A DNA stretch of 64,000 nt from positions 67,487 to 131,486 of the forward strand of contig JBDRIT010000025.1 in NCBI GenBank assembly GCA_043815665.1, given 5' to 3'. Origin of the DNA: Pseudomonadota bacterium. GTDB lineage: Bacteria; Myxococcota_A; UBA9042; CAIXZC01. Shown piece after piece: positions 46,701 to 64,000 of this stretch; position 1 is the stretch's first letter; every line of letters starts with the position of its first letter. The notes beneath the pieces are model-generated. The model was not told the origin of the DNA. It saw only the letters and a program-made list of their open reading frames with translations, and ran no database searches. The position numbers were made by a program, and so were the translations under genes.

Positions 46701-46861
46701 ACCCCACGATCTTCCCGAAGTCCGAGACCTCCTCGGGCTGCACCCGGGCCCCAGCCGGTTCGACCGCTACGGTCTGGCTGCTCCTCCTGGCCCTTGCGGG
46801 CCTCATCGGCGTGCGCCGTGTCCGTCGGGGCGACCTGAAGGACGCCCGCACCGGAGGATGA
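43733..46861 (+). CDS. large secreted Cys-rich repeat protein (LamG-like N-domain, ~9 CGxDGCGGxCGxC repeats, MYXO-CTERM-like tail)
   Basis: Signal peptide. Repeat units such as CMPNCGGKICGSDGCGGACGACPPGFEC. C-terminus GCTRAPAGSTATVWLLLLALAGLIGVRRVRR. Confidence 0.8.
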   Translation: MSMKGRWTMRFAMTAILVAALAAPAAAATWSYGFDNDLQEFSGTDGWVSQYCSDPWTTALNGGVTPKTDDGCNVEQCTPSNNCGYNWGYWLQWGQCIQSDPLDNHITYGPKTWQDYVFRADMRNDDDDTFGFVFRYQNSGQFYLFMISRNIAPLPNLGCGHEIYGAALYRIEGSDGTVLGTAENVVYQPGQVHKVQITVQGNHLTVQFDTNHDGAFGADETIFDLDDPDPLPSGQVGFFAWENGATGNDADPCSAGGCWFDNAEVDVLAVDDPCDGISWEGYCEGNTAVYCDDGVVKEVNCQGCCAWIPQQEYYWCTNGPSCQQDCIPECGQGDFGCSDQGTHAWVCGQDSTGCWIRSWTACTQSGVCDAATGQCAGNPCEPQCVGEDGQLMACGPDGCGGACGTCPGDSYCGAGFTCVEDCMPNCGGKICGSDGCGGACGACPPGFECNQQGLCQAQCLPNCVGKQCGNDGCGGSCGICPPGLTCVDYQCTVCTPDCTDKQCGGDGCGGLCGTCPEDFTCEDNLCVEGPCEPQCVSADGLMKQCGPNGCAGFCGFCPPGLECNDAGMCISTCTPDCEGKDCGPDGCDGFCGQCDDDALCWDGQCIVQDSCVGFCGEQGPSCYCDPQCQDYGDCCDDACEACPDLPFCGQCQPLCADPLGNPFECGDDGCSGACGLCGDGDVCQGHVCVPDGPVIPETCSEIQGCIEQCGDDEACAAACFEVAPPDAQQLYFELVQCYQGAEGLCDCVGEDDNCWLVCLLTECEAVIDACYAFQGDCGDIVGCTQECTGGTCMADCLNSEGDVAAKLLFMEVAACVENACADPFPGCVEDALQGPCADLFEECTGGACEPDCQGPDGPMQCGGDGCGGSCGECGAGASCVGGECVDDGDPCGLACAGKECGSTNGCLCGTCDAGQACDDGECIPVGECTPGDYKQCVGDILYWFDSCDQQGPPTEICKGTCVEDKCVDEEPGTGDVIDPEDAGPDPDITDPTIFPKSETSSGCTRAPAGSTATVWLLLLALAGLIGVRRVRRGDLKDARTGG

Positions 46862-48174
46862 ACCCCGTGCACACCACCGGCCGGGTCGTGGCCCTTTCCC
46901 TCCTCGCGTTCCTGTGCGGCGGGTGCGGCGGGGATGCTCCGAGGGCGGGGACCGGCTGGATCCTCCCCGGAGAGGTCGGGGCATGGCCGGACGCCCTCTC
47001 GGGGGATGACACAGCAGCGGACATCGCCATCGGCGAAGGCGGCGATTCGAACTGCGATCCCCCCGACGTCTGCGCCCACGAAGTCACCTCGGACACGGAC
47101 GCCGGGCTCCTCTGCACCCCCGGGGAGAGGTCCTGCGACGGGGCCGACGTCATCGAGTGCGGAGGAGACGGGCTCGCCTGGGAATCCCTCGGGGACTGCG
47201 ACGACGGGGACTTCTGCACCGAGGACCAGTGCCTGGGCGGGGAGTGCCTCAACGAGGCCCTCGGGTCCTGCTGCGAGCCGCCCTGCCCCCTCGGACAGCT
47301 CTGCTTCAACGGGGAGTGTGTCTGCGCATCCCAGTGCTTCGGCAAGGAGTGCGGCGACGACGGCTGCGGCGGGACCTGCGGCGAGTGCCCTCTGCAGCAC
47401 CACTGTTCCCCCGCGGGCCAGTGCACCTGTGATCCGGATTGCGCGGGGCCAGACGGGACGGAGAAGGAGTGCGGCGACGACGGCTGCGGCGACGCCTGCG
47501 GATTCTGCCTCGGGCCCCAGGATCTCTGCCTCGAGGGGCTCTGCGTCTGCCAGCCCGCCTGCGAGGCGATGGAGTGCGGCCCGGACGGCTGCGGCGCCGA
47601 CTGCGGTGTCTGCCCCGCCCAGCACCAATGCTCCCCGGAGGGCCAGTGCGTCTGTGTCCCGGACTGTGCTGGCAAGACCTGCGGCGGCGACGGGTGCGGC
47701 GGCCTCTGCGGCGAATGCGACGCCCCGCTGTATCTCTGTGACGCCGCGGGGCAGTGCGTCCAGGACCCGGCCTTCTCACCGGTGCTCGGTGCGTGCACAC
47801 CCCACCTCCTCGGGCCGACGGTCTATTACATCTGCTGGCAGGCCAAGAAGTGGGACGACGCAAAGGACTACTGTGCGGACAACGGCACCTGGCTCGCCAC
47901 GATCACGTCCCAGGCCGAGCAGGACTTCCTCGCCGGTCTCGCTGGCGCGGCGGGGCAGACCCTCTGGATCGGTCTGAGCCAGGGCTTCTGGGAGTGGGAC
48001 TCCTTCGAGTGGGTCACCGGCGAGGGAAAGCCCGTGGAGTTCTGGGGCGAGGGTGAGCCCAACGATGGCGGGTTCTTCGAGAGCGAGGACTGCGGCGAGA
48101 TGCACCCCGCCGGGTTCTGGAATGACGAAAAATGCGGCGACGAGCAGTGGTTCTTCTGTGAGCACTCCTCCTGA
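46858..48174 (+). CDS. Cys-rich repeat lipoprotein with C-terminal C-type lectin-like domain
   Basis: ATGA overlap with the upstream gene. LSLLAFLCGGCGG. Four CGDDGCGGTCGEC-type repeats. C-terminal WIGL...WEW...GEPND...WNDEKC...FFCE is a CTLD signature. Confidence 0.8.
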   Translation: MNPVHTTGRVVALSLLAFLCGGCGGDAPRAGTGWILPGEVGAWPDALSGDDTAADIAIGEGGDSNCDPPDVCAHEVTSDTDAGLLCTPGERSCDGADVIECGGDGLAWESLGDCDDGDFCTEDQCLGGECLNEALGSCCEPPCPLGQLCFNGECVCASQCFGKECGDDGCGGTCGECPLQHHCSPAGQCTCDPDCAGPDGTEKECGDDGCGDACGFCLGPQDLCLEGLCVCQPACEAMECGPDGCGADCGVCPAQHQCSPEGQCVCVPDCAGKTCGGDGCGGLCGECDAPLYLCDAAGQCVQDPAFSPVLGACTPHLLGPTVYYICWQAKKWDDAKDYCADNGTWLATITSQAEQDFLAGLAGAAGQTLWIGLSQGFWEWDSFEWVTGEGKPVEFWGEGEPNDGGFFESEDCGEMHPAGFWNDEKCGDEQWFFCEHSS

Positions 48175-48223
48175 CCCAGGGGCGCCGACGGCGCGCCGGA
48201 CGGTTCCCCGGAGCCGCGGCTGG

Positions 48224-48706
48224 ATGGTGCCTGCCGGAGGCATCGGCCTCGCCGGCCTTCTCGCCCTCACCGAGGCCGCGTTCGGCGTCGGCTATCCGAC
48301 CCCATACAGCCCACCGGAGGCACCGCTCATGGCGGCTGCGTGGGGCCTGCCCGCAGGGATGCTCCTCACGGAGGCCTGGTTCGATCTGCGCACCTACGGC
48401 CTCGGCCGGAAGGGCCTGTTCCTCCTCTTCGGGATGGTCCTCGCGGCCACAGGATGCCTCCTCCCGTGGCCCATCGCGGTGCCGCCGAGCATCCACGGCG
48501 CGGTGGTCGGCCTCGCGGTGCTCCACGAGCTCATCGACTACCGGCCGACGAGCTCCCACCGGCTCGTGCTCGTGATGTTCTCCCTCCTGCTGGCCGCCTG
48601 GCACGAGCTGTTCCGCTTCCCCGCGCCCGCGTCCCTCCTGGTGGGGGTCGGGGTGGGGATCGCTGCCTGGTGTGTCGCGAGGATCAGCGCCGGCGCAACG
48701 CGGTGA
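48224..48706 (+). CDS. hypothetical polytopic membrane protein
   Basis: ~160 aa with 4-5 hydrophobic helices. Weak similarity to A24 prepilin peptidases (FDLRT), but no GxGDVK motif. Confidence 0.45.
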   Translation: MVPAGGIGLAGLLALTEAAFGVGYPTPYSPPEAPLMAAAWGLPAGMLLTEAWFDLRTYGLGRKGLFLLFGMVLAATGCLLPWPIAVPPSIHGAVVGLAVLHELIDYRPTSSHRLVLVMFSLLLAAWHELFRFPAPASLLVGVGVGIAAWCVARISAGATR

Positions 48707-49955
48707 CCGTCTCGATGTGCGGCGTGTGGGGGAAGAGATCCACCGGGATGACCCGGTCCACCCGCCAGCCTGCGTCCACGAGGATCCCGAGGTCTCTCCC
48801 CAGGGTGTAGGGGTCACAGGACACGTAGACGATCCCTTGGGTCGGGTGATCGCGAAGGGCCTCGCAGACGGCACGGGCGCCGGCCCGGGGCGGGTCCAAC
48901 AGGACCAGGTCCGGAGCAGGGCCATCCTGACCGAGCGCCCGCACGGCGTCCCCGTGGTGAACGCGGAGGGTCGCTCCCCGCGGGGCGGCGCCCTCGAGGG
49001 CACGCACCGCAGGCCCCGACGACTCCCAGGCCTCGACAGCCAGCCCTGCTCCGAGCAGGGGGAGGGTCATGTTTCCGCTCCCGGAGTACAGCTCCAGGAT
49101 CCTGCCGGATGGGGGCACCATCGCCTCCACCGCGGCGATGACACGCTCCACGAGGAGCCCGTTGGCAGCCCAGTTTGCCTGGAGGAACGCGCCCGCGGCC
49201 ACGGGGATTCGCCAGGTCCTGCCTGTGACCTCGAGGATCTTGGACCCGGTGGCCTCGCTGAAGCGGTGGCTGCCCAGCCCCGGAGCTCCGAGGATCCCCC
49301 CCCGGATCGCCTTGGATTGAGCCAGCGCAACCTGGAGACCATCGAGATCCCGGGGCACGTTCGAGAGGTTGATCGCGACCAGGACGCCCTCGTCGGCGAG
49401 GCTCAGCTCCACGGTCCCGGCGGCGCCCCGCCCGGCCAGGGCGGCGCGCAGGGCCGCGGCCGCGTCGAGGAGCGGCCGCATCAGCACGGGACACTCCGGC
49501 GCATTCACGACCTCGTGGGTCCCGGGACGGAAGAAGCCCAGGCGGACGCGACCGCCGTCGGAGGCAATGTGGAGCCGTGCCCGGTGGCGCCAGGCCCGCT
49601 CTTCCGGGCTGGGCACCACCTCCTCCGGCGGCATCTCCACGCCGGCCCGGCCCAGCGCGTCGGAGAGGATCTGGCGGCATGCGTCCCGCTGCGCAGCGAC
49701 CGCGACGTGCTGCCAATCGCACCCCCCGCACGTCCCGGCGAGGGGACAGAAGGGCTCGACCCGACACACAGACGGTCGGATGACCCGGGTCACGACCGCC
49801 AGGTCGAACCGTGCACGCTGCTGGAACAGGCGGACCTCCACGACCTCGTCCGGCGCGGCGCCGCGCACGAAGACCACCTTCCCGTCGGTTGCCCGCGCAA
49901 CGGCGCCGCCCAGGAACGCGAGGGCGCCGGTCTCCAGGGTGACGACGTCGGTCAA
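48684..49955 (-). CDS. rlmD: 23S rRNA (uracil-5-)-methyltransferase RlmD/RumA family
   Basis: TRAM-like N-terminus. Cys cluster CRVEPFCPLAGTCGGCDWQH. SAM-MTase motifs LELYSGSGN and DPPRAG. Confidence 0.88.
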   Translation of the reverse strand: MTDVVTLETGALAFLGGAVARATDGKVVFVRGAAPDEVVEVRLFQQRARFDLAVVTRVIRPSVCRVEPFCPLAGTCGGCDWQHVAVAAQRDACRQILSDALGRAGVEMPPEEVVPSPEERAWRHRARLHIASDGGRVRLGFFRPGTHEVVNAPECPVLMRPLLDAAAALRAALAGRGAAGTVELSLADEGVLVAINLSNVPRDLDGLQVALAQSKAIRGGILGAPGLGSHRFSEATGSKILEVTGRTWRIPVAAGAFLQANWAANGLLVERVIAAVEAMVPPSGRILELYSGSGNMTLPLLGAGLAVEAWESSGPAVRALEGAAPRGATLRVHHGDAVRALGQDGPAPDLVLLDPPRAGARAVCEALRDHPTQGIVYVSCDPYTLGRDLGILVDAGWRVDRVIPVDLFPHTPHIETVTALRRR

Positions 49956-51028
49956 GGCAGGTCGAGCCCGAGGAGGAGGGGCACGTGGTCGGAGAGGTCG
50001 GGCATGGGCTCGAGGAGCTTCGGGGTCGAGGTGTTGATGGAGCCACCCGTGAGGAGGTAGTCGAACCGCCGGATCGGCGCCGCCCCTTCCGCCCCCAGCC
50101 AGGTGGCGTGGGCCGCCGGATCCTGGAAGAAGTCCCGGTCCTGGACGACCTCTTTCAGGCTCCCCTTGTGGCGCAGGAGATCCATGGTGTACTCCATCTC
50201 GCCCATCTGCTTCGCCTCTTCGGGGTTCTTGGGGCGCTGCGCGGGCTCCGTCCAGGTCGTTGCGTAGACCACCGCATCATGGAAATCCCGGGTCTCGATC
50301 CACTCGGCGGCAGCGCTCGCCTGGCGCTCCCGAGCCCTGGAATCGACCTGGTCGAGGACCACCTGCAGGATCTTGAGCTCCTTCTCGTCGCCTACCCGGA
50401 TCCGGGCCTCATGGACCACCGCAATGGGACCGAATGCATCGTCCATCCAGCCCCTGTCCCTGGAGCCGGGGAGGGGGTAGAGCACGCTCTTCGCAATCGG
50501 GTATCGGCTGAGCACGGCCACGCCGGAGTCGATCCCCCCCGAGAAGTTGAGCACAAGGGGCCGCGGGTAGAGCGGGTACGGGCTCATCTGCGTCCGCGCC
50601 CGGGCCACGTAGGCCCAGCCGAGGCGCCGCGCGAGGATCTCGGCCTGGTCGCGCTCCCCCGTGGCCCGGGACCCGAAGTCCACCTCCTGGAGCACCAGCG
50701 CATCCGCCGCCTGGTCCCGGACCAGGGCCACCACCTGATCCAGACGGTGGGAGATCGCCTGGTCCTCATGAGCCACCTCGGCGGGCGGGTTCCGCTCGTA
50801 CCAGATCAAGTCCCGACCCAAGCCGTGGTTGAGGTTCAGGAACAGGATCTTGAGCCCCTTGCCGGTGCTCTGGGGTGGGTCCTCACCCGCCCAGGAACCC
50901 TGCTCCACGTCCAGATTCGTCTCCCCGATCGGGTGGTACCCGGACTTGTAGATCCCGAGGACCAACAGCACCAGGACGATGAATGCCACGATCAAAATGG
51001 TCACGATGACGGAAAAAAAGCGTCTCAT
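49952..51028 (-). CDS. endonuclease/exonuclease/phosphatase (EEP) family protein, N-terminal TM
   Basis: LKILFLNLNHG...LVLQEVD...SDHVPLL are EEP-fold motifs. Confidence 0.8.
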   Translation of the reverse strand: MRRFFSVIVTILIVAFIVLVLLVLGIYKSGYHPIGETNLDVEQGSWAGEDPPQSTGKGLKILFLNLNHGLGRDLIWYERNPPAEVAHEDQAISHRLDQVVALVRDQAADALVLQEVDFGSRATGERDQAEILARRLGWAYVARARTQMSPYPLYPRPLVLNFSGGIDSGVAVLSRYPIAKSVLYPLPGSRDRGWMDDAFGPIAVVHEARIRVGDEKELKILQVVLDQVDSRARERQASAAAEWIETRDFHDAVVYATTWTEPAQRPKNPEEAKQMGEMEYTMDLLRHKGSLKEVVQDRDFFQDPAAHATWLGAEGAAPIRRFDYLLTGGSINTSTPKLLEPMPDLSDHVPLLLGLDLP

Positions 51029-51037
51029 CGGTCTCCT

Positions 51038-51898
51038 CTAGAGGTGGATCCTCAGCGGTCTGGTTGAACGTCGCGGCTCGATCACATCACCGTAACCGAG
51101 ATCGTGGCGGATGTGCCCGCCATCCACCCAGACCGCTGCCTCCGGGGTGAGGTTGGTGATACGCAGGCCGCCGGTGAACGTCTCCCGCAGGAGACGGAGG
51201 GTGTCCTGTCGGCGAAATACCTCCCGCACTGCGAACTGGAGCATGCACGCGCCCAGGGGCATACGCGTTCCCCCGGCGTTCAGGATCCCCGCGGTGGATC
51301 CGGCCGGGGTCGAGACCCAGATTCCTGAGCTCTTCTGCAGCTCCCGGCGCCCGTCCAGCTCGATGGAGTACACCGTCGACGTCGCCGGGTTCACCGCGGT
51401 GTACAGGAAGTCGTTGAGGGCTGGAGGCGGCAGCTCCACGCCTCCCACAGAAACGGAACACCTGGTGAGGTTTCGTGGCGCAACCTCACCGGCCAGGATC
51501 GGCCGCAGACGGTCCGGAAAATCGTGCCGGGTCGCCGCGCAGAACCAGCCTACGCTGAAGGTCGGCCTCGAGTTGATCCCGACGATCGGGGTGTCCACGA
51601 GCCAGTGGGACGCATCCAGCAGGGTCCCGTCACCGCCCACGGTGATCACGAGGTCGTACTCACCGTCCTGGTCCACCCCCGGAGGAGCGCCCAGCCGGTA
51701 GGAAATCCCACCGCCAGTAAGGAAGGCCTCGACGGCCTCCGTGACCTTGAGGTTCTCATCGTGATCCCGGAGCAGACGGGCGGCGTGCTCGCCGCTCTGC
51801 GCCATCAACTCAAGGAACCGCGGCACCTTCTTCTCCAGCCCGAAGTGCTGGTAAAAGCTCCGCTTGGTCACGAGCAGGACCTGCGCGGTCCGTCCCAC
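51038..51898 (-). CDS. nadK: NAD kinase
   Basis: DLVITVGGDGTLL GGDG motif and the NE/D short motif. 286 aa, typical for PpnK. Confidence 0.9.
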   Translation of the reverse strand: MGRTAQVLLVTKRSFYQHFGLEKKVPRFLELMAQSGEHAARLLRDHDENLKVTEAVEAFLTGGGISYRLGAPPGVDQDGEYDLVITVGGDGTLLDASHWLVDTPIVGINSRPTFSVGWFCAATRHDFPDRLRPILAGEVAPRNLTRCSVSVGGVELPPPALNDFLYTAVNPATSTVYSIELDGRRELQKSSGIWVSTPAGSTAGILNAGGTRMPLGACMLQFAVREVFRRQDTLRLLRETFTGGLRITNLTPEAAVWVDGGHIRHDLGYGDVIEPRRSTRPLRIHL

Positions 51899-52061
51899 GT
51901 TGGTCCCTCCTTTTTCTCTGGTCCTCGGGCAGTCGGGGCGCTATCGGTCAGTATCCAGCAGGGAACGTTTGTCCACAACCCAAAAAAATGTCATGAAAGG
52001 GGTAAAGGCGTCGGGCGATGGTCCGTTTCACGCCGGAACCGTGGGGACCTGGAGGAAGATC

Positions 52062-53039
52062 ATGCGATACAAGGCAATGCTCGGAGCGATGGTTCTGGTC
52101 CTCATGGCCGGCCTGGCCCTCCTGATCAACAGTGGCCTCCAGGCCCCGTCCGGGGCAGCCACAGGGGAAGCCACCGGCTGCGGCGGCGACCCCACCGCGC
52201 CCATGGATACGGCGGAGGCGGACTATGTCCTCGGGTCCGCAGAGGGCGATCCCGACACGCCAGTGAAGATCACCTACAAGGGCGCCGCCACGGAAAAGAG
52301 CTGCCCGACCCTCAGCGTGGAGCCGGGGGACCTGGTCGCCGCGTTCGAGGACCCCTGCGCCGACCCCGGCGCGATCCGGATCTGGGAGCTCACCCCCGGC
52401 GAGGCCGCCAGTCTGATCGCTGCATTCCAGGCGATTCGTGATCTGAACTGCACCTCCCAGGATTGCCTCGACGTGCTGACCCAGGCGGAGGAGTCCCTGC
52501 AGCTGGAGCTCGAGGCGCCCATGGAGGCCCAGATCGCGAACCTCCTGAAGAAGGCCCAGTCCGTGCCCCCCACGGGGACCGGCGAGGAGGCCCCGGAGCC
52601 CGATCCCCCCGCGGTGGCCGACCCGGGGGCCCCTGAGGTCCAGCAACAGATCTCCCAGGTGACCTTCAAGGCCGAGGAGGGCGTAGACTTTGCAGCGGAC
52701 GCGGTGGTCAAGGACGGCCACCCCCTCAAGGTGGACCTGATCTGCTACGCCGGCTCCCAGGGCCTCGACTGCCAGGCCGGCGCGGGTCCCACGATCAGCA
52801 AGCAGAAGCACCTGAAGCTCTTCCGCACGCCCGGGGGCACCATCGAGACCTTCGGCGGCGTCACGGAGCTGCCCACGGACCTCCCCTTGGACGCGGACCG
52901 GGACATGCTCAACGGCGCCGAGGCCGGCTGGGGCTTCGTCCTCGAGAACAACCTCTCCAAGACCTACACCCGCGCCTTCATCAAGAAGGCCACCCAGGAC
53001 TCCATCACGATCCAGTACGTCGTCTTCGCCGCCGACTGA
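52062..53039 (+). CDS. secreted hypothetical protein
   Basis: GGAGGA RBS. Signal peptide MRYKAMLGAMVLVLMAGLALLINSG. High GC3. Confidence 0.6.
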   Translation: MRYKAMLGAMVLVLMAGLALLINSGLQAPSGAATGEATGCGGDPTAPMDTAEADYVLGSAEGDPDTPVKITYKGAATEKSCPTLSVEPGDLVAAFEDPCADPGAIRIWELTPGEAASLIAAFQAIRDLNCTSQDCLDVLTQAEESLQLELEAPMEAQIANLLKKAQSVPPTGTGEEAPEPDPPAVADPGAPEVQQQISQVTFKAEEGVDFAADAVVKDGHPLKVDLICYAGSQGLDCQAGAGPTISKQKHLKLFRTPGGTIETFGGVTELPTDLPLDADRDMLNGAEAGWGFVLENNLSKTYTRAFIKKATQDSITIQYVVFAAD

Positions 53040-53060
53040 TTCCGACCCGCCTCACAATCT

Positions 53061-53525
53061 CTACCGTGAAACGACCCGCGGTGGTGCGGACCTCGACGCC
53101 GAACCGGGCCAGGACGTCCCGGATCGGCCCCTGGACCGTTCGAAGGGGGTGTGGACGTCGAAGCGGCCTTCCGATCGGGCGCTCGCGGCGATCACGAGCA
53201 TCCTGGGCCCGAGCACCACCGCGCCGCCACCTCCCCTCCGTCTGTGCACCGGGACCCCGTCGGCCTCTGCCACATGGGTGTTGACCACGCAACCGATGTC
53301 CTGGGAACGGCCCACCACGAGCCCGGTGCGCGCGCTCAAACACGTCCGCGCGAAGACCCGCCCCCCGTCGTCGACCGAGACCCGGAATCCCCCGTCGTAC
53401 AAGGCCGAAAGCGCATCGGACACGTGGCTCCCAGGGCCCGCCAGCGCGGCGTCTCCGGGGTACGGACTCCCGGCATCCCTGGGCAGGAGATCGGCGACCG
53501 CAAGGGTCCGATCCATGGGCTCCAT
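53061..53525 (-). CDS. hypothetical protein
   Basis: GAGGAG RBS before ATG. MEPMDRTLAV... 154 aa. The longer ORF-track version (to 53981) overlaps hupB and the HU promoter and is rejected. Confidence 0.4.
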   Translation of the reverse strand: MEPMDRTLAVADLLPRDAGSPYPGDAALAGPGSHVSDALSALYDGGFRVSVDDGGRVFARTCLSARTGLVVGRSQDIGCVVNTHVAEADGVPVHRRRGGGGAVVLGPRMLVIAASARSEGRFDVHTPFERSRGRSGTSWPGSASRSAPPRVVSR

Positions 53526-53711
53526 CTCCTCACTGATCGCCGCCCTTCGGGACCTCGGGGGCTGTCGCGAATCCCTCGACGTTTCGTCTTCATGAAATAA
53601 ACTGTGCATTTTTCGCTTGTCGTTCCAGATGCGCAGTGTTAAAAAGCCCCCAGAGCCAGTGATGGCAACGCATAACGCAATTGGGTCATTCAAACCGGAA
53701 GGGGGACTACC

Positions 53712-53975
53712 ATGACCAAGGCCGAGCTGATCAGCGCCGTGAGCGGAGACTACACCAAGAAGGATGCCGAGGCCGTCGTGAACGCGGTCTTCGAGGTCAT
53801 CAAGGGCACCCTGGCCACGGACGGGACCTTCTCGTTCCCGGGCTTCGGGACGTTCAAGGTCAAGACCCGCGCCGCCCGTAAGGGCCGGAACCCGCGGACC
53901 GGCGCCGAGATCACCATCAAGGCGAGCAAGACCGTGACCTTCAAGCCCGCGCCGAGCTTCAAGGGCGACCTCTAG
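53712..53975 (+). CDS. hup: HU family DNA-binding protein
   Basis: [11 protein letters not shown]...[26 protein letters not shown] is the canonical HU/IHF fold signature. GGAAGGGGG RBS. Confidence 0.95.
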
Positions 53976-54151
53976 TCCCAAAACAAGCGAAGATACCGTA
54001 GCGAGGCGGTCGAGATGGCGGTGCTGACAAGGATAGCGAACGAAGGCGATGCCGAGTATCGTCGAGTTCGAGTGAGCATGGCGAACGGTCTATCCGCCGT
54101 TCAGCACTGGCAGATCGGCTGCCGCAGTAGGCAGATGCGCTTGTTTTGGGG
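53976..54151. repeat. inverted-repeat-bounded intergenic element (13-bp perfect terminal IR cccaaaacaagcg / cgcttgttttggg); candidate structured ncRNA (6S-like size) or MITE-like element
   Basis: IR arms at 53977-53989 and 54138-54150 close a ~176-nt unit with lower GC and internal hairpins. Exactly fills the gap between convergent hup and lemA. Confidence 0.35.
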
Positions 54152-54778
54152 CTAAAACCCCACCTTCGGCGGCTTCTTCGTGGCCTCCTTCTCGGCCTCG
54201 TCCAGCTCGTAGTATGGCGCCTCCTCGAGGTCGGTCATGCCAGCGAAGAACCGCCCGAAGAAGGAGCGACGGTACGCGTTCAGGGCCCGGGCAGCCTCGT
54301 TGTAGCGCTTGCGGGCCACTGCGATGCGGTTCTCCGTGCCCTCGATGGAGTCCTGGAGCTTGAGGAAGGACTGGTTGGCCTTGAGGTCAGGGTACTTCTC
54401 CTTCAGGAGGAGGAGCCGGGACAGCGCCCCATCCAGGCCCGAGGCGGCCTTGATCTTGTCCGTCATGGAGCCGCCCTTGGCCGCGGAGAAGTACGCCTTC
54501 CTCGCGTCGGCGAGGTGGGTGAAGACCTCCTTCTCGTGCTTCGCGTAGCCCTTCACGGTCTCCACGAGGTTGTCCAGGAGGTCCAGGCGTCGCTTGAGCT
54601 GGTTCTCCACCTCGCTCCAGCCCTCCTTGACCTGTTCGTCGTAGGTGACGCCCTTGTTGTACATCCGCACGAACCAGAGCCCTGCGATCAGGGCGATGAT
54701 CAGGAGAATGCCGACGGGCAGCAGGCAACCAAGCTTCCAGTTGAAGCCGGCGCGGCCGGGTGTGGAATCGTCGTTCAT
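54152..54778 (-). CDS. LemA family protein
   Basis: N-terminal TM then the LemA domain (VTYDEQVKEGWSEVENQLKRRLDLLDNLVETVKGYAKHEKEVF...). Confidence 0.9.
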   Translation of the reverse strand: MNDDSTPGRAGFNWKLGCLLPVGILLIIALIAGLWFVRMYNKGVTYDEQVKEGWSEVENQLKRRLDLLDNLVETVKGYAKHEKEVFTHLADARKAYFSAAKGGSMTDKIKAASGLDGALSRLLLLKEKYPDLKANQSFLKLQDSIEGTENRIAVARKRYNEAARALNAYRRSFFGRFFAGMTDLEEAPYYELDEAEKEATKKPPKVGF

Positions 54779-54787
54779 TGGGAGCTC

Positions 54788-56524
54788 CTATAGCTTGAGA
54801 CCGGTGAATGGGACGGTCACCGCCCCGTTGTCTGCACCGCCGAGGATCCACGTCCCCGTGAACGCGCCCATCAGCGCATCGGCTTCCAGATCCTTGTCGT
54901 CATCGCTCAGCGCCGCGGCGCCGGAGACCACGAGCGCCTGCTCGGCGCCGACGATGGCGGCGAGGGCCAGGTAGTCACCCAGGGCGGCGTAGACCGCATC
55001 GTCACAGTCTTCGACGAGCTCGCTCATGGGGCGGTTGATGCAGGTCAGGGTGGACTGCTTCACGCCGGCGAGCATGGCCGCGCAGTCGAAGTGTCCGGTG
55101 AAGAGCTCCACCATGGAGGTCGCGCCGTCCGCGACGTCCGGGAGGACGACGTTCACGAAGGCGAAGAGCAGGAGCCGGCCCGGGTTGACGTGGAGCTCGA
55201 ACTCATGGAGGAGGAGCTCGTTTGCGGAGGTCACCTCGCAGACGATGTCGCTGTCACCAGCCTTGAGCCATGCCTCACCGGTCTCGAACGCATCCTCCAG
55301 GAACAGGGCATCGCCGAGCTCCAGGGACTTGATGTCCAGGGTGGCGACGCAGGCTCCACCGAACGCGCCGCCCTCGATGGCCAGGGAGGCGCCGAAGATC
55401 GGGTCCGTGAGCAGATCCTGCAGGGGCGCGGCGACGTCCTCGAGACCGACGGCCCAGGCCGGGGGGAGATGCGCCGCCGCCCACACGTCCACGGACTCGT
55501 TGATCTCGACGCTCACGTCATCGCATTGCTCCGGCAGGACGCCATCGTCCATCCAGACGAGGATCCCGTCCAGCACCGTGGTCTTCACGTCCCCGGGGAC
55601 CGTGTCCAGGCCCGCCTCGAGGGCAGCGGACCACCCCGGTGCGTGGCCCGTGGTCAAGACCCCGAAGTCCGGCGCCATGGTCAGCTCGTAGCTCCCCGTC
55701 GGGCTGATCTGCAGGGGACCGAGGGTGACCGCCGCGACGGTCTCCTTCCCGGCGAAGACGCTGATCCCCTCAGTGCATCCGGCGCCCACCGGGGAATCTC
55801 CGTCGTCATAGCCGACCACCATGATGGTGGTCCCCGGGCCCGCCACCGCGTCCTCGATGAGGAGCTGGTTCTCCTCCGCACCCAGGGTGTAGAGAGCCAT
55901 GTCCGGGGACGGGGAGACCGGCTCCGCGGCGGCGCAGAGGAGGCCCGACTGGGAGACATAGACCCCGAAGTGGTCGATCTTCTCCGGGTCGGTCACGTCC
56001 CCGCCCACCGTGAGGGTGAGGAGGATCGTGCCCGTGGCGTGGGCCCGGACATCGAGGACCACGTCGATCCCCGGCGCGCAGGGGGTGTCGATGCGCAGGT
56101 CATAGAGGACCGGCGCCTGGGCGCCCGTGGAGAGGTCCACCGCGGCCACGCCGAAGCCGTCGGTCTCCGCGGCCGCCTGGAGGATCTGCCCGTCGCCGTC
56201 GCCGGTGAGGGCGAAGGTCACGACCTCGCCCTCGGGGGTGTCCCCGGTGACGGGGTCGTAGATCCGAGCTTGGAGCACGTACTCCCGGTCCACCTCCAGC
56301 ACCAGGGGGGAGGCGCCGTTGAACAACTCCAGAATGAGCTCGGCACCACAGTGACCGCCCGGTTCGAGGTCCTCGAGATCCGCCGAGATCGTCACGTCGG
56401 GGGTGGTCGTCTCACCCTGGGCGACATCCTCGGTGCCATGAGTCCCACCGCCGCCGCCCGTGCAACCGACCACCAAAATCACAGCGATGATGCCAACCCA
56501 TCCGGCTCGCTGCTGCTGCACCAT
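54788..56524 (-). CDS. large hypothetical lipoprotein
   Basis: MVQQQRAGWVGIIAVILVVGC lipobox. 578 aa. Acidic, beta-rich. Confidence 0.6.
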   Translation of the reverse strand: MVQQQRAGWVGIIAVILVVGCTGGGGGTHGTEDVAQGETTTPDVTISADLEDLEPGGHCGAELILELFNGASPLVLEVDREYVLQARIYDPVTGDTPEGEVVTFALTGDGDGQILQAAAETDGFGVAAVDLSTGAQAPVLYDLRIDTPCAPGIDVVLDVRAHATGTILLTLTVGGDVTDPEKIDHFGVYVSQSGLLCAAAEPVSPSPDMALYTLGAEENQLLIEDAVAGPGTTIMVVGYDDGDSPVGAGCTEGISVFAGKETVAAVTLGPLQISPTGSYELTMAPDFGVLTTGHAPGWSAALEAGLDTVPGDVKTTVLDGILVWMDDGVLPEQCDDVSVEINESVDVWAAAHLPPAWAVGLEDVAAPLQDLLTDPIFGASLAIEGGAFGGACVATLDIKSLELGDALFLEDAFETGEAWLKAGDSDIVCEVTSANELLLHEFELHVNPGRLLLFAFVNVVLPDVADGATSMVELFTGHFDCAAMLAGVKQSTLTCINRPMSELVEDCDDAVYAALGDYLALAAIVGAEQALVVSGAAALSDDDKDLEADALMGAFTGTWILGGADNGAVTVPFTGLKL

Positions 56525-56666
56525 CTCGATCCCTCCTTGAAACAAGGCTTGGATACCATACACGAACTCCACCTTCCAATCGTTCATTTTCTCCATGCAT
56601 TTCAGGAAAATATGTGCTAACTTCCCGCTTCCGCGAGGGAGAGGCCCATTGAATTCGGAGACGCCG

Positions 56667-57041
56667 ATGGTACGGATCGCGTATGTTGCCCAGCACAGGC
56701 GGGGGCTCAGGGAGCTGCTCGAGCAGCTCGCCGAGACCGGCTACATGGTCTACCGAATCGATCCCACGGTGCTGGCCTACAAGAAACTCCGAGACAACCC
56801 GCCGGACATCATCATCGCCGACGCCACCCTCAGGGAGGGGCACGTCAAGGAGGTGGTGGAGTCCGTGAGCAGCTCCCGCATCACCAAGGAGATCCCCATC
56901 TGTGTCGTGGGCTGCCGCTTGGAGGTCCTCGACCGGATGCGGAAGGCCGCCCCCAACGCGAAGGTCGTCCTCTCCGGCGAAGTGACCCGAAAGATGCTCG
57001 TGGAGATCGTGAAGCAGCTCGCGACGGTCCTGCAGCACTAA
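56667..57041 (+). CDS. single-domain receiver-like (CheY-fold) protein with degenerate acidic pocket
   Basis: Flavodoxin-like alpha/beta pattern with DIIIAD at the phospho-acceptor position. No N-terminal DD pair (IAYVAQHRR). Confidence 0.55.
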   Translation: MVRIAYVAQHRRGLRELLEQLAETGYMVYRIDPTVLAYKKLRDNPPDIIIADATLREGHVKEVVESVSSSRITKEIPICVVGCRLEVLDRMRKAAPNAKVVLSGEVTRKMLVEIVKQLATVLQH

Positions 57042-57044
57042 GGG

Positions 57045-57218
57045 CCTGCGGCGAAATAAGTGGATCGCACCGAGAGCGCCGAAGCGCCCTGGCCGGAAGG
57101 CGCGGAGGTGCACGCCGACCGCAGGCGTACTTGAGGTACGTCGAGGGAGGTGGGGGCCCCGCAACGCACCGGGCGGGGCGGCAGCGGGGCTCGAATGCAC
57201 CACTTGTTTCGCCGCAGG
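57045..57218. repeat. inverted-repeat-bounded intergenic element (19-22-bp terminal IR cctgcggcgaaataagtgg / ccacttgtttcgccgcagg); candidate structured ncRNA or MITE-like element
   Basis: Arms at 57045-57063 and 57200-57218 with one G.U position. ~174 nt. Followed by the ggtcc-taa-ggacc hairpin at 57217-57229. Sits between convergent genes. Confidence 0.35.
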
Positions 57219-57309
57219 TCCTAAGGACCCGTTCCGAAACAACCTGCTCGTTCGGCTTCCGCTGCATCCCGCCCTGCTGCGTTGCTCTCCCTGCGACGCT
57301 GATCCGACA

Positions 57310-60265
57310 TCAGTCCCCGACGAGGATCACCACGTCGTCCAGGTAGATCGTCCCGAAGGCCTGGTTGGTCAACTCGAACCTGAAGGTATGCGCGCCCGCG
57401 CCCATCGTCGTGACCTCGGCGGACAGGTGGTGCCAGGTGTTGTCGCCGCAGACGGAGCTGGAGGGGACCGCCAGGAGGGTCCCGCCGTCACCCTTGACGT
57501 TCAGGTTCCAGTTCGGCGTGATGCCGGCCGGACAGAGGAGCATGAAGGAGATGTAGGACTCCGTGCCGCTCGGGAGGACCGCGCTGAACTCCATCCAGCC
57601 ATCCAACTTGTACTTGTTGTACCGGAAGGAGTGGGTCGGGGAGTTGGCGAACTCCGGTGTCCCGGAGGCGTCATAGACGAGCCAACCGGGGTTGAACGCC
57701 GGCCACGAGTCGGAGTAGCTGAACTTTGCGGAGGTGACGCCCGCCGCCTCGTCGTCGAAGTTGGCCTGGAACAAAGGCGTCATGGAGAGGCACAGGGTGT
57801 TCCCGTCGCCGGGGTCCGCACAGATCTCCAGCGCGCCGCACTCCGATGAGGTCTGGCAGCAGGTGTCGCAGATGCACTGGTGGAGCTCCTCGTTGCAGGT
57901 CTCGCTGCTCAGACAGGTCCCGCAGGTGCCACCGCAGCCGTCGGCGCCGCACTCGTAGCCGCCGCCATCGCCGTCATCGCAGACGGGCACGCAGCAGCTG
58001 CCGTCGATGCAGGGCAGTCCTCCGCAATCGTCCTCCGTGGTGCAGCACCCGGGGATCGGGTCGAAGAGACAGGCGGACCCGTCCTCGGTGCAGGTGTTCA
58101 GGGTGCACTCATCGCCGTCGTCGCAGGGGAGCGCGGGCGCAGGGGCGTGGGCGCAGCCGTCCACGGGCTCGCAGGAGTCGACGGTGCAGGGCTCCCCGTC
58201 GTCGCAATCGATGGGCGCGCCGCCGGTGCACTCGCCCGCGGCGCAGGTCTCCCCGGTGGTGCAGACGTCCACGTCGTCGCAGGTCCCGCCGTCATTGATC
58301 CCCGTGGGCACGCAGTCCCCGGTCCCCGGATCACAGGCCAGCTCGTAGCAGGTCCCGCCGGGGCCGCACTCCACCGCGGAGTCGGGATCGTTCGCGCAGG
58401 TGTACGGGAAGGAGGCGATGTCGCATTTCGGGGTGCCGTTGCAGAGATCCCCGTCGTCCGTGCAGTCCCCGGCCACGAGACACTCGCAGAGAAACACCCC
58501 GTGCTGGCACGCCCCCGCCGCGTCGCATTGGGCGTTCGGGTAGCAGGCGCCCGCCTCACCTGCGGAGGCGTCGGGGTAGGAGCACGCGGTCCCCAGCAGG
58601 GCAGGGCCGTGGATGCAGGCTCCGGTGAGCGGGTTGCAGGAGTCGACGGTGCAGTCGTTCTGATCGTCGCAGTCCACGGTGAGCACCCCTGCGCAGCCGC
58701 CGGACGCGGTGCAGGCGTCCACGTCGGTGCAGGCGTCCCCGTCGTCACAGGTCTCTCCGGTGAGGGCCACGTTGGCGCAGGCCCCGGTGAGCGCGGTGCA
58801 GGAGTCCGCGGTGCAGGCATTCAAGTCGTTGCAGTCCTTGGCCCCACCTGCACAGCCCCCCACCCCGTCACAGACGTCGACCTCGGTGCAGGGATCGCTG
58901 TCGTCGCAGGGCTCCCCGTCGAGCGCGGCGGCGTCGTGCTCGCATTCGCCGGAGATCGGATCGCAGGAGTCCGCGGTGCAGCCGTTGCCGTCGCCGCACT
59001 CCGTCTTGTCGCCCGGGACGCACGCGACGCCCACACAGATGGCGCTCCCCGTGCACGCGTCCCCGTCATCGCAGCCTCCGCCGGGGTTGGCCGCCTGCTG
59101 CTCACAGACGCCGGTCCCTGCCTGGCACTGCCAGGTGGAGCACTGGGTGTCGGCCGGGCACTCCACGGGCGCGCCCGCATCCACGCACATCCCCTCCTGG
59201 CAGACCCTTCCTCCGTCGCAGAGGTCGACGTCCAGGCAGTCCGCGTCCGCCGCACATTCGCCGACGCACTGAGCGGCCTCGGCGTCGCAGAGGAACTTCC
59301 CCTCGAATCCTTCGATGCACTCCTGGGACTCGGTGAACAGGCCCTCGTTGCACTGGCGGTAGGTGGTCGCGCCGGTGCAGAGGATCCCTTCGTCCACCAC
59401 ATGGGTGGCGAGGTCCTCGATGAGGATCACGCAGCCCCCTGCGGTCTCCGCGCAGACGGCCTGGGCGCCGCCGTAGGTCCAGGCGCAGGTCCCGCTCGCG
59501 CACATGGAGCCCATGAAGCAGGCCTCCCCCGCGGCGCAGATCGCCTCGTCGATCTCGCCGTCGCAGTCGTCGTCCAGGCTGTTGCACAGCTCGTCAACCG
59601 GAGTGCAAGAGGAGCCGCTGCCGCCACCGAGGCCGCCGACGAAGAGGGAGAAGTGGGTCGTGGGGATGCTCACGGTGCCCTTCACGAGGTTCACCGAGGC
59701 CGGGAGCTTCGTCCAGTCCTCCTCGAGGCTCAGGGGCTGCCGGAAGCCGCCCAGCTGATCCCAGGTCACGTCCTCGGGCAGCTCCGTGGGGAGGTCGTCG
59801 AGGAGCGGCAGGATGAGGAGCACCGGCTTGTTGAACACCGCGCCCTCGTTCGCGACGTCGATGCGCCACACCGCGGTGAGCGCCACGACGCCTTCCGGCG
59901 GCGCAGCGCCGCCCTGCACGCCGATGAAGACGTTGATCTCCACCGGAAACGCGTCGGGGGGGACGACCAGCGTCACGCCGCCGTCGAAGAGGAACGTGCC
60001 CCCCGCGGGGCCGATGTCCCACGCCTCCTTCGAGACACCGGTGATGTCCTCCGGCGGGGCGGTGTCTTCCCCGTCCGCATCTCCAGTGACGTCCAGGTCC
60101 TCGTCGGTGGTGTCCGGCGGGGTGGTCAGGTCCTCCTCAGCGGTGTCCGGTGCGATGAGGATCTTCTTCTCGGCCGTGACCACACAGGACTGCGCAGCCA
60201 GGGCCACCAGGGCCAGGAACAGGGCGATCCGGCTCATCCCATGGAACGCTGTTGTCGCTCTCATT
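57310..60265 (-). CDS. large secreted Cys-rich protein with Dictyostelium-type CTDC repeats (CxDGDxCTxDxC), one CGADGCGGTCGTC unit and a C-terminal lectin/LamG-like domain
   Basis: Signal peptide MRATTAFHGMSRIALFLALVALAAQSC with GGAGAG RBS. More than 12 CDDGDACT...C repeats. Confidence 0.8.
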
Positions 60266-60287
60266 CGTCTCTCCACAGTCGCAGGGT

Positions 60288-63236: not shown

Positions 63237-63384
63237 GAGCGGTCCGTCCCCCTGCCGTCCTCGAAGGCAAATCGGTCGCACGCGAGCGCACCCGCATGTG
63301 TCCGCACGCTGTTCATTGTAGCGGATCTCGCTGACTTCCAAAATAGCGGACTGGGGGATGGGCGCAGAAGCGGCGTTCCGGGGG

Positions 63385-64000
63385 TCAGTTCCCCGGGTTC
63401 ACGCCGTTGCCGATGACGATCTTGTAGGAATTGCAGGTGACCGGAGCCCCAGGGTGCCGATAGACCCTGACGAAGTACCACGAGGTCTGATCGGCGCACT
63501 CGTGTTCGCCGATGGTGTCGGTGGCACCGTAAGGGGCGCACGGGCACTCCCCGCCGCCGTTCGGGTAGCCCTGCTGCTTGTCGTCGTGGAAGTCCACGTA
63601 GTCGTCGAACTCCGTCGAACCCACACAGATGTTGTCCGCGCCAGCGCAGGAAGACCGGAACACGTCGAAGAGGAACTCCACCTGCGAGGGGTCCGGACCC
63701 CACTGGGGGTTGTCCTCGAACCAGGCGGTCACGTGGAAGGTGTCGCAGGCCTGGGGATCCGTGCCATCGAGGGCCTGGAACTTGTACCAGTCCGAGTCCC
63801 CCGCGGGGACGAGCTTCGCCGTGGTGATCACGGTGGCGCCGGAGTCGGGGAGGTTGCCGAGGTGGGTCGCTGTGTCGCATTGCTGGGCCACGACCTCGCC
63901 CTCCTCGAGCTGGCACTCGCAGCCGTTGACGTAGTTCTGGTCGATGTCGAAGAAGCTGGCGTCGCACTCCGAGATGACGCAGCCGCCGGCGCAGATCACG
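63385..64000 (-). CDS. Cys-rich secreted protein with PPC-like (pre-peptidase C-terminal, DWYKF) domain, 5' end beyond window
   Basis: ORF runs off the window end. MopE-like C/D motifs and DWYKFQALDG. Confidence 0.55.
   Translation of the reverse strand, partial: VICAGGCVISECDASFFDIDQNYVNGCECQLEEGEVVAQQCDTATHLGNLPDSGATVITTAKLVPAGDSDWYKFQALDGTDPQACDTFHVTAWFEDNPQWGPDPSQVEFLFDVFRSSCAGADNICVGSTEFDDYVDFHDDKQQGYPNGGGECPCAPYGATDTIGEHECADQTSWYFVRVYRHPGAPVTCNSYKIVIGNGVNPGN

What the first reader, a model, noticed from the sequence alone, without database searches (positions are those of the whole stretch)
53976..54151. 176-nt element with perfect 13-bp terminal inverted repeat between convergent hup and lemA: candidate 6S-like ncRNA or MITE
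cccaaaacaagcg (53977-53989) and its exact reverse complement cgcttgttttggg (54138-54150) close a unit with lower GC than its flanks and several internal hairpins (ggcgaacggtctatccgcc, ctgcc-gcagtag-ggcag).

The size and the long closing stem fit a 6S RNA-type fold. Alternatively it fits a miniature inverted-repeat element that has landed in a safe convergent intergenic site. A 13-bp IR within 200 nt is expected only ~0.2 times by chance in 64 kb.
Basis: seen in the sequence. Interest (0 to 1): 0.6.

Follow-up and report, generated by a model that had tools for sequence, protein, structure and literature searches.

The report
Small hairpin-forming transposon (MITE), not 6S RNA
The 176-nt unit between hup and lemA is one copy of a small non-coding mobile DNA element that inserts at CTAG-type sites, which in this GC-rich genome are mostly stop codons; it is not a 6S-type regulatory RNA, and it sits exactly where the gene order of this genome breaks from that of its relatives.

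Summary
The perfect 13-nt inverted repeat lies at 53977-53989 / 54138-54150 and closes a 174-nt rod-like hairpin (RNA fold -93 kcal/mol, z -7.3).

The 6S reading fails:
- No Rfam match even at E<=10.
- The fold has no large central bubble.
- The element is absent next to both hup and lemA in every sampled relative.

The MITE reading holds:
- One metagenome scan found five homologues at unrelated loci. At least one host is of another phylum (Verrucomicrobia-like).
- All five have the same termini, CCCAAAACAAGCG...CGCTTGTTTTGGG, the same ~175-nt rod, and 6-bp flanking direct repeats N-CTAG-N.
- A second, distantly similar foldback element (B, 57044-57219) has a perfect 6-bp repeat (CTAAGG). It is an insertion relative to two relatives.

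In the window, element A's two flanks match at only 3 of 6 positions. Each flank equals the ancestral sequence of a different locus, and synteny with relatives breaks exactly at A. So A is probably a recombinant copy left by a rearrangement between two copies, or an assembly join at a repeat.

The parent transposase is unidentified. The 6-bp NCTAGN duplication is IS481-like, but the CCC...GGG termini are not.

One point is unexplained: pairing is kept through compensatory changes, with a G·U excess on one strand.

The parts
53977..54150 (+). Element A proper (174 nt): a non-coding foldback element running from CCC to GGG. The + strand is the G-rich strand and the one with the much more stable fold.
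   Evidence: Sequence read. Folds are -93.2 kcal/mol (z -7.3) on + and -69.5 (z -3.4) on -. The covariance model built from the family scores 138 bits on + and 41 on -. The boundaries come from the 6-bp direct repeats of the homologues.
53977..53989 (+). Left terminal inverted repeat, CCCAAAACAAGCG.
   Evidence: It is invariant in all six family members (alignment A2).
54138..54150 (+). Right terminal inverted repeat, CGCTTGTTTTGGG.
   Evidence: It is invariant in all six family members.
53971..53976 (+). Left flank TCTAGT, the N-CTAG-N target type. It contains the hup stop codon TAG (53973-53975) and is identical to the sequence after hup in relative L090.
54151..54156 (+). Right flank GCTAAA. 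It contains the lemA stop (CTA, 54152-54154, minus strand). Relatives have N-CTAGA here. It matches the left flank at only 3 of 6 positions, so the two flanks are not a simple duplication.
53712..53975 (+). hup (HU family, 87 aa). It is the last gene of the synteny block window 41560-53977, which matches L090.
54152..54778 (-). lemA (208 aa). It is the first gene of the synteny block window 54149-64000, which matches L081/L082/L086 reversed.
57044..57219 (+). Element B (176 nt), a second foldback element. Its ends are GCCTGCGGCGAAATAAGTGG ... CCACTTGTTTCGCCGCAGGTC. It shares the core CRAAAYAAGYG and the tip hairpin GGCG-NNNN-YGA-NNNN-CGUC-GAG with A. It is absent from relatives.
   Evidence: Sequence. 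Folds are -127.8 kcal/mol (z -8.7) on + and -104.1 on -. The family model gives only a weak hit, 9.5 bits, E 0.86. L082 and L086 have 7-17 nt at this site instead of 268 nt.
57038..57043 (+). Left copy of B's 6-bp target-site duplication, CTAAGG. It includes the TAA stop (57039-57041) of the 148-aa gene 56595-57041.
57220..57225 (+). Right copy of B's 6-bp target-site duplication, CTAAGG.

Best explanation
Element A is one copy of a family of about 175-nt non-autonomous foldback transposons (MITEs). The family is defined by 13-bp termini, CCCAAAACAAGCG...CGCTTGTTTTGGG, and by an interior that pairs end to end.

Inferred mechanism: a transposase encoded elsewhere binds the two identical termini and inserts the element at N-CTAG-N (less often N-CTAA-N) with a 6-bp staggered cut. 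Repair of that cut gives the 6-bp direct repeats.

In this 68.6% GC genome such TA-containing sites are extremely rare and lie largely at stop codons or between genes. Copies therefore end up flush against stop codons, and the duplication restores the stop of the gene on each side.

The copy in the window is not a fresh insertion. Its left flank is the ancestral hup-side site and its right flank is the ancestral lemA-side site, and the conserved gene order of relatives breaks exactly at the element. It is therefore most likely the product of recombination between two copies, one beside hup and one beside lemA, which joined two formerly separate regions.

Shown here: family membership, termini, duplications, presence/absence among relatives, the synteny break, and the scarcity of targets. 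Inferred: a DDE-type enzyme acting in trans, and recombination as the cause of the break.
For: 1. Family. The scan CAAAACAAGCG-N{135,160}-CGCTTGTTTTG of JGI metagenomes gave 10 loci. Five are full-length homologues: L105, L107, L108, L110 and L111. They are rods of -103 to -147 kcal/mol. They score 146-168 bits with a model that scores window A at 138 bits.

2. Target-site duplications. The 6-nt flanks are identical in L107 (GCTAGG), L111 (ACTAGG), L110 (TCTAGC) and L105 (CCTAAG). L108 has one mismatch (CCGAGG/CCTAGG). Element B has CTAAGG/CTAAGG. The variable outer bases agree 8 times out of 8, and CTAA is a direct repeat rather than an inverted one, so these are duplications and not part of the inverted repeat.

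3. Mobility.
- B is an insertion relative to L082 and L086.
- The L107 copy lies between gspE and trxB, and it is absent there in the 81%-identical relative L141.
- A is absent after hup in L090, L094 and L095 and after lemA in L081-L089.
- The hosts differ. The window's LemA is named 'Pseudomonadota bacterium' at NCBI and its HU resembles Myxococcales/Deltaproteobacteria proteins. The TrxB next to the L107 copy is closest to Verrucomicrobia, Lentisphaerae and Kiritimatiellales proteins.

4. Target scarcity. CTAG occurs 8 times in 64 kb where 186 are expected. YTAR occurs 19 times, 7 on predicted stop codons and 5 intergenic. Four of the 19 are the flanks of A and B.

5. Recombinant copy. Window 41560-53977 is colinear with L090, where hup is followed by pyrG and ftsK. 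Window 54149-64000 is colinear with L082 reversed, where lemA is followed by an MS-channel gene. L090 and L082 come from the same sample. Flank TCTAGT equals the sequence after hup in L090. Flank GCTAAA corresponds to CCTAGA/ACTAGA after lemA in L081/L082.

6. The element is non-coding. The only ORF is 46 aa with no Pfam match.
Against: - No autonomous element with these termini was found.
- No IS5-like transposase occurs in the window or in any fetched locus.
- Only one A-type copy lies in the 64 kb, and copy number per genome could not be measured.
- The feature combination fits no insertion-sequence family I could check. The 6-bp N-CTAG-N duplication is that of IS481 (PMC3053399, PMC2516522), but IS481 ends are TG...CA (PMC10045372). 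CC...GG ends are those of IS1380/piggyBac, which make 4-bp duplications according to PMC10045372. The AAYAAG core resembles IS5 ends, but IS5 duplicates 4 bp (PMC5493358).
- The interior keeps pairing through compensatory changes and has a G·U excess on one strand. A plain double-strand cut-and-paste element does not require either.
Confidence: 0.8

Rival explanations
1. A mobile structured RNA. The element is a transposon copy, but its rod is a functional, strand-specific RNA (or single-stranded DNA) structure kept by selection. For example it could be a portable two-way transcription stop or insulator between genes, an mRNA 3'-end stabiliser, or a double-strand RNase substrate. This adds to the MITE explanation rather than excluding it.
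For: - Across six members, 87% of cells in 49 pairs are paired against 75% in shuffles (0 of 500 shuffles as high). 21 pairs have changes on both sides (0 of 500). Slid controls give about 40% paired.
- Within subfamilies, substitutions fall 2-3 times more often at unpaired than at paired positions: 12/36 against 21/154, and 13/52 against 16/144. Each subfamily pair has 3 double compensations.
- G·U outnumbers A·C 56:23 on the homologous G-rich strand. Fold energies differ by 23-43 kcal/mol between strands in all six family copies, and by about 24 in B.
- The termini place an A-tract 5' and a U-tract 3' of a GC-rich hairpin on both strands.
Against: - The stable strand has no fixed relation to neighbouring genes. 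In L107 it is antisense to both gspE and trxB.
- No promoter-like or canonical terminator-like site is found at A.
- Window A itself shows no G·U excess: 4 against 5, and 6 against 7.
- The copies were oriented by the more stable strand, and two pairs of copies are close relatives, so the counts are not independent.
- Palindromic interiors that differ between subfamilies could arise at the birth of each subfamily, by inverted duplication of one half, without any selection.
- There are no expression data.
Confidence: 0.12
2. A single-copy regulatory ncRNA gene, 6S-like or another sRNA, or a structured 3' UTR of hup that evolved in place.
For: The size is about 176 nt, there is a long closing stem, the fold is very stable, and the location is intergenic.
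Against: - No Rfam match at the gathering threshold or at E<=10, and none for the homologues or for B.
- No large central bubble.
- It is not conserved with hup or lemA in any relative.
- Homologues lie in unrelated contexts with target-site duplications.
- No promoter-like site.
Confidence: 0.02
3. A REPIN-type element: a doublet of REP sequences moved by a RAYT tyrosine transposase through single-stranded DNA.
For: It forms a long hairpin, it is intergenic, and one strand folds better than the other, as expected for single-strand recognition.
Against: REP/REPIN elements make no target-site duplication (own knowledge). Here 6-bp duplications are exact in 5 of 7 copies. At about 175 nt the element is also longer than typical REPINs. 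No RAYT gene was looked for beyond a tblastn search for IS5 transposase.
Confidence: 0.03
4. The palindrome is a by-product of the rearrangement itself, or of a metagenome assembly error, and is not an element.
For: It sits exactly at a synteny breakpoint, and the window comes from a metagenome-assembled genome.
Against: The arms are imperfect, about 73% complementary, unlike an assembly fold-back. Homologous copies exist in five independent assemblies. An assembly join at a repeat remains possible for the junction, but that would itself require several copies of the element.
Confidence: 0.03

Closest known systems
MITEPsy1 of Pseudomonas syringae (an IS5-family-derived MITE; PMC3189936)
   Same: It is short and non-coding, has terminal inverted repeats with an A-rich ...AAAAAGC core, inserts at CTAG or YTAA, and is shown experimentally to move.
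   Different: MITEPsy1 is 100 nt, duplicates 4 nt and starts with GGAAGG. The present family is about 175 nt, duplicates 6 nt, starts with CCC, and pairs along its whole length.
IS481 / IS1002 / ISLxc2 (IS481 family; PMC3053399, PMC2516522)
   Same: The 6-bp target-site duplication has the consensus N-CTAG-N. The TAG of the target can serve as a stop codon for a frame reading out of the element. Here the frame through the right end reads ...R-L-F-W-x-stop.
   Different: IS481-family ends are TGT...ACA (PMC2516522, PMC10045372), while these are CCC...GGG. No rve-type transposase was found nearby.
E. coli IS5 (ends read from NC_000913; target described in PMC5493358)
   Same: The IS5 ends GGAAGGTGCGAAYAAG share the GCGAA(A)YAAG core with element B and AAYAAGCG with A. 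IS5 prefers CTAG > CTAA/TTAG.
   Different: IS5 duplicates 4 bp, not 6. The outer parts of the ends differ. No IS5-like transposase was found in the window or loci.
Foldback intergenic repeats such as Neisseria Correia elements, enterobacterial ERIC and Rickettsia palindromic elements (from my own knowledge, not tested here)
   Same: They are 100-200-nt imperfect palindromes with terminal repeats, inserted at TA-containing targets, often next to gene ends. They can be transcribed into hairpins and are associated with rearrangements.
   Different: They have different termini, different duplications (TA for Correia) and different hosts. No sequence similarity was detected.
6S RNA (Rfam RF00013 and related families)
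   Same: It is about 180 nt with a long closing stem.
   Different: There is no model match, no central bubble, no conservation in relatives, and the element is mobile with target-site duplications.

Membership tests
MITE (non-autonomous DNA transposon) | Short (under about 500 bp) and without coding capacity | tested here: met
   The element is 174 nt. Its only ORF is 46 aa with no Pfam match. Peptides read from related copies are not conserved.
MITE (non-autonomous DNA transposon) | Terminal inverted repeats shared by all copies | tested here: met
   The 13-nt termini are invariant in six copies from six assemblies.
MITE (non-autonomous DNA transposon) | Target-site duplication of fixed length | tested here: met
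   The 6-bp flanks are identical in L105, L107, L110, L111 and B, and L108 has one mismatch. Window A matches at 3 of 6 positions, explained as a recombinant copy.
MITE (non-autonomous DNA transposon) | Presence/absence at orthologous sites in relatives | tested here: met
   B against L082/L086. L107 against L141. A against L081-L095.
MITE (non-autonomous DNA transposon) | Several copies within one genome | not testable with these tools
   Only 64 kb of the genome is available, with one A-type copy plus the distant B. The genome is not in the searchable collections. The mismatched flanks at a breakpoint imply a second copy only indirectly.
MITE (non-autonomous DNA transposon) | An autonomous partner with the same termini | tested here: not met
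   None was found in the window, in the fetched loci (143 in all), in plasmids or in viral contigs. The transposase next to a solo end in L105 has its own, different 20-bp ends. The search space was small, so this is absence of evidence.
IS5-group derivative | 4-bp duplication of YTAR | tested here: not met
   The core is YTAR but the duplication is 6 bp. IS5 duplicates a tetranucleotide (PMC5493358).
IS5-group derivative | Ends resembling GGAAGGTGCGAAYAAG | tested here: inconclusive
   Only the core is shared: B has GCGAAAYAAG and A has AAAACAAGCG.
IS481-family derivative | 6-bp duplication of N-CTAG-N | tested here: met
   compared with PMC3053399 and PMC2516522.
IS481-family derivative | TG...CA (TGT...ACA) termini | tested here: not met
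   The termini are CCC...GGG. The IS481 signature is described in PMC10045372 and PMC2516522.
6S RNA | Match to the Rfam 6S covariance models | tested here: not met
   No hit at the gathering threshold over the window, and none at E<=10 over 53550-54350.
6S RNA | A large central bubble between a closing stem and a terminal stem | tested here: not met
   The minimum-energy and centroid folds are a rod with small internal loops and a small three-way tip.
6S RNA | Conservation as a single-copy gene in related genomes | tested here: not met
   It is absent at both flanks in relatives.
6S RNA | An abundant transcript that binds RNA polymerase holoenzyme | not testable with these tools
   No expression data are available.
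REPIN / RAYT system | No target-site duplication, and an associated RAYT gene | tested here: not met
   Copies carry 6-bp duplications. A RAYT gene was not specifically searched for.

The most novel reading that the evidence does not exclude
The family is a horizontally spreading, strand-specific structured RNA (or single-stranded DNA) module carried on a transposon. Its whole-length hairpin would be kept by selection, shown by compensatory changes and by G·U pairs that keep the RNA helix while weakening the DNA palindrome. Hosts in different phyla would then gain a ready-made two-way insulator or terminator, or an RNase target, exactly at stop codons. It would be moved by a transposase type with a so far undescribed combination of CCC...GGG ends and a 6-bp N-CTAG-N duplication.
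Probability: 0.12. Interest if true: 0.6.

Novelty: new member of a known kind. Interest (0 to 1): 0.33.

Why it matters
For annotation, this removes a false ncRNA candidate and explains why long hairpins abut stop codons in this GC-rich genome: the element's target is nearly confined to stop codons.

For genome evolution, it gives a concrete case of a small repeat marking the exact junction of a rearrangement. It also makes a testable prediction: a reciprocal junction, MS-channel gene / element / pyrG, should exist elsewhere in the genome.

For mobile-element biology, the family is present in at least two phyla. It combines an IS481-like target duplication with non-IS481 ends, so finding its transposase could define an undescribed subgroup.

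The signs of selection on the hairpin would, if confirmed, link transposon spread to an RNA-level function.

Tried and rejected
- Rfam at the gathering threshold (whole window) and at E<=10 (A, B and three homologue contigs) gave nothing meaningful.
- BLAST of A and B against the window found no further copies and no A/B similarity. MAFFT of A against B was uninformative.
- The exact-protein look-up of the window's HU and LemA found nothing on record.
- The genome-contig scan with LemA found no close relative, best 62%. The single scan of that collection was thereby spent.
- I first read the flanks as a 4-bp IS5-type duplication, and before that as 2-3 bp. I rejected this once the outer bases were seen to agree in every copy, which gives 6 bp.
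- The IS630 model (CTAG target, TA duplicated) was rejected. It would require the element's ends to vary with the flank.
- Retron, integron attC and IS200/IS605 readings were considered and dropped. The neighbouring ORFs that were called or scanned include no reverse transcriptase or integrase, the elements are not in same-orientation arrays, and true duplications are present.
- Viral-contig scans with two-arm patterns gave six loci, of which only L098 is a rod, and it has no clear duplication. The single-end pattern gave 28 loci, roughly what I estimate chance would give from an assumed collection size, and none has a partner end. Two CTAG-T-CCC ends at contig edges could not be extended. Stricter A and B patterns gave no hits.
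- Plasmid BLAST gave only short chance hits.
- A text search of papers for the terminal sequence found nothing relevant.
- The L105 solo end lies next to a Transposase_29 insertion sequence, but that element has its own unrelated 20-bp ends.
- Peptides read through the right end have no Pfam match and are not conserved. I therefore did not spend the large protein-representative search on them.
- The promoter and terminator scan at A found nothing.

Full report
**What is there.** The window is 68.6% GC. Between the convergent genes hup (53712-53975, +, PF00216) and lemA (54152-54778, -, PF04011) lie 176 nt.

With one G-T it extends to 17 nt and takes in both stop codons.
- A perfect 13-mer repeat within 200 nt is not rare here. 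There are four in the window, against 0.76 expected in shuffles.
- The whole unit is exceptional. As RNA the + strand folds into one long rod of -93.2 kcal/mol, z -7.3. The - strand gives -69.5, z -3.4.
- In a scan of the 64 kb in 200-nt windows, this region and one other (57038-57225, element B) are the top outliers.

**Not 6S, and not a conserved RNA gene.**

- No Rfam family matches at the gathering threshold over the window, or at E<=10 over 53550-54350. The same holds for B and for homologues.
- The fold has no large central bubble, and there is no promoter-like or terminator-like site.
- The element is not conserved. LemA relatives at 83-93% identity (loci L081-L089) have an MS-channel gene converging on lemA with a 4-nt overlap or a 6-nt gap, and no hup and no element.
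- HU relatives at 86-95% identity (L090-L095) have hup followed within 12-90 nt by pyrG and ftsK, or in L094 by an unrelated 304-nt spacer and another gene. Again there is no element.

**A family of mobile elements.** Element B was the first clue.

- B is a 176-nt rod (+ strand -127.8 kcal/mol, z -8.7) that starts at the TAA stop of a 148-aa gene. It lies between convergent genes where relatives L082 and L086 have only 7-17 nt.
- BLAST sees no similarity between A and B. They do share an 11-nt subterminal core, CRAAAYAAGYG, on both arms, and an 8-bp tip hairpin, GGCG-NNNN-YGA-NNNN-CGUC-GAG, whose inner four pairs differ but stay paired.

I spent the single metagenome scan on A's termini (CAAAACAAGCG-N{135,160}-CGCTTGTTTTG), which returned 10 loci.

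- Five are unmistakable homologues: L105, L107, L108, L110 and L111. Their termini are identical over 13 nt, they are 170-180 nt long, and they fold as rods of -103 to -147 kcal/mol.
- A covariance model built from the six scores them at 146-168 bits and window A at 138 bits, all in the same orientation. B reaches only 9.5 bits, E 0.86.
- The other five loci are not rods. L103, L104, L106 and L109 are chance matches or something else, and L112 is a perfect 190-nt palindrome at a contig end, probably an artefact.

**Target-site duplication.**

- The six nucleotides outside the termini are the same on both sides: GCTAGG (L107), ACTAGG (L111), TCTAGC (L110), CCTAAG (L105) and CCGAGG/CCTAGG (L108). 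For B they are CTAAGG/CTAAGG.
- The outer variable bases agree 8 times out of 8, and CTAA is repeated directly, not invertedly. These are therefore true 6-bp duplications of N-CTAG-N. I had first read them as 4-bp IS5-type duplications and corrected that.
- A 6-bp N-CTAG-N duplication is the published hallmark of IS481, IS1002 and ISLxc2 (PMC3053399, PMC2516522). IS481-family ends, however, are TG...CA (PMC10045372, PMC2516522), and these are CCC...GGG.
- CC...GG ends are typical of IS1380/piggyBac, which make 4-bp duplications according to PMC10045372.
- The AAYAAG core recalls the IS5 ends GGAAGGTGCGAAYAAG, which I read from E. coli K-12. IS5 and its derivative MITEPsy1 duplicate 4 bp (PMC5493358, PMC3189936).
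- No IS5-like transposase is present in the window or in any fetched locus, and no element with these ends carries a gene. The parent family is unassigned.

**Mobility and host range.**

- Besides B, the L107 copy sits between gspE and trxB, and the 81%-identical relative L141 lacks it at that site. L107 also has a solo 14-nt end directly after the complete copy.
- The TrxB next to the L107 copy is closest to Verrucomicrobia, Lentisphaerae and Kiritimatiellales proteins.
- The window's LemA is named 'Pseudomonadota bacterium' at NCBI, and its HU resembles Myxococcales/Deltaproteobacteria proteins.
- The family therefore crosses phyla, as expected for something carried with a mobile enzyme.

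**Why it sits on stop codons.** CTAG occurs 8 times in the 64 kb, where base composition predicts 186. All YTAR tetramers together occur 19 times, 7 on predicted stop codons and 5 in intergenic DNA, and four of the 19 are the flanks of A and B. In relatives, lemA and the MS-channel gene overlap in a shared CTAG. An element that needs N-CTAG-N can hardly land anywhere else, and its duplication restores a stop codon on each side. This step is inference from the counts, not an observed insertion.

**The copy in the window is a junction.**

- Window 41560-53977 is colinear with L090, and window 54149-64000 is colinear with L081/L082/L086 reversed. L090 and L082 are contigs of one sample. The two blocks meet exactly at element A.
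- A's flanks, TCTAGT and GCTAAA, agree at only 3 of 6 positions, unlike every other copy.
- TCTAGT is the sequence after hup in L090. GCTAAA corresponds to CCTAGA/ACTAGA after lemA in L081/L082, with a synonymous change in the last Phe codon.
- This is the pattern expected when two copies, each with its own duplication, recombine and exchange flanks. An assembler crossing over at a repeat would give the same picture. Either way a second copy is implied.
- The reciprocal junction (MS-channel gene / element / pyrG) is a direct prediction for the full genome.

**What is not explained.**

- The interior differs between subfamilies but stays paired. On the MAFFT alignment, 87% of cells in 49 pairs are paired against 75% in shuffles. 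21 pairs have changes on both sides, 0 of 500 shuffles reach either value, and slid controls give about 40%.
- Between close copies (L105/L107 and L110/L111, 80-83% identical), substitutions are 2-3 times more frequent at unpaired positions, and each pair has three double compensations.
- On the homologous, G-rich strand, G·U outnumbers A·C 56:23. That strand folds 23-43 kcal/mol better in all six family copies, and by about 24 in B.
- This points to selection on a single-stranded form, RNA or DNA, of one strand.
- Several cautions apply. The orientation was chosen by stability. Only about four lineages are independent. Window A itself shows no G·U excess. The stable strand is antisense to both neighbours in L107. 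Palindromic interiors could also be born by inverted duplication. I therefore rate a functional-RNA layer at about 0.12.

**Verdict.** The element is a new family of a known kind, non-autonomous foldback transposons. Three features deserve follow-up: an unassigned transposase type, a position exactly on a rearrangement junction, and hints of strand-specific structural selection. Interest is modest (0.33).

Noticed in passing
window 57038-57225: Element B is a second 176-nt foldback element with a perfect 6-bp duplication, CTAAGG. It is inserted between convergent genes where relatives have 7-17 nt. About 85 further window-specific nucleotides (57226-57309) follow it.
   Followed up: yes
window 6680-6804: A third intergenic palindrome of about 125 nt has 13-nt perfect ends, CGTCATCCTGAGC...GCTCAGGATGACG. 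It folds at -68 to -78 kcal/mol (z about -4 to -5) and is unrelated in sequence to A and B.
   Followed up: partly
window 53040-53609: About 570 nt upstream of the hup promoter region is absent in relative L090, which has 4 nt there, and is replaced by two genes in L095. It shows no convincing ORF and no similarity to anything fetched. This is a second variable spot next to hup.
   Followed up: partly
window 53976/54150 junction; L090, L094, L095: The DNA downstream of hup differs in three ways among four relatives: pyrG-ftsK in L090 and L095, an unrelated 241-aa gene after a 304-nt spacer in L094, and lemA in the window. The 3' side of hup is a rearrangement hot spot.
   Followed up: partly
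window, whole: CTAG is about 23-fold under-represented, 8 observed against 186 expected from base composition. Half of the sites overlap predicted stop codons.
   Followed up: yes
L107 2047-2063: A solo terminal repeat, CCCCAAAACAAGCG, follows the complete copy directly and shares its CTAG. It is then followed by a short GC-rich hairpin. It is a remnant of a second insertion or of a deletion.
   Followed up: partly
L105 7336-7362 and 7371-9857: A solo right end, CTCGCTTGTTTTGGGG, lies 9 nt from an insertion sequence that encodes a Transposase_29 (PF21804) protein and has its own perfect 20-bp ends, TTCAGACCTCCTGACATACC.
   Followed up: yes
L098 5820-5988: A viral-collection contig holds a 170-nt rod hairpin whose ends, AAGGTTGCGAAATAAGTGG, closely resemble IS5 ends. 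No clear target-site duplication is visible.
   Followed up: partly
L104 482-652: This stretch is bounded by the same 12-nt termini as A but is not a rod. It has an internal B-type end (ATCGCTTATTTCGCGCC) and no CTAG flanks. It may be a composite or decayed copy.
   Followed up: no
window 53976-54156 and homologues: In A, L105 and L107 the reading frame from the left TAG through the whole element to the right TAG is open, giving xQNKR...RLFWx-stop. The encoded peptides are not conserved, so this is probably a composition effect.
   Followed up: partly
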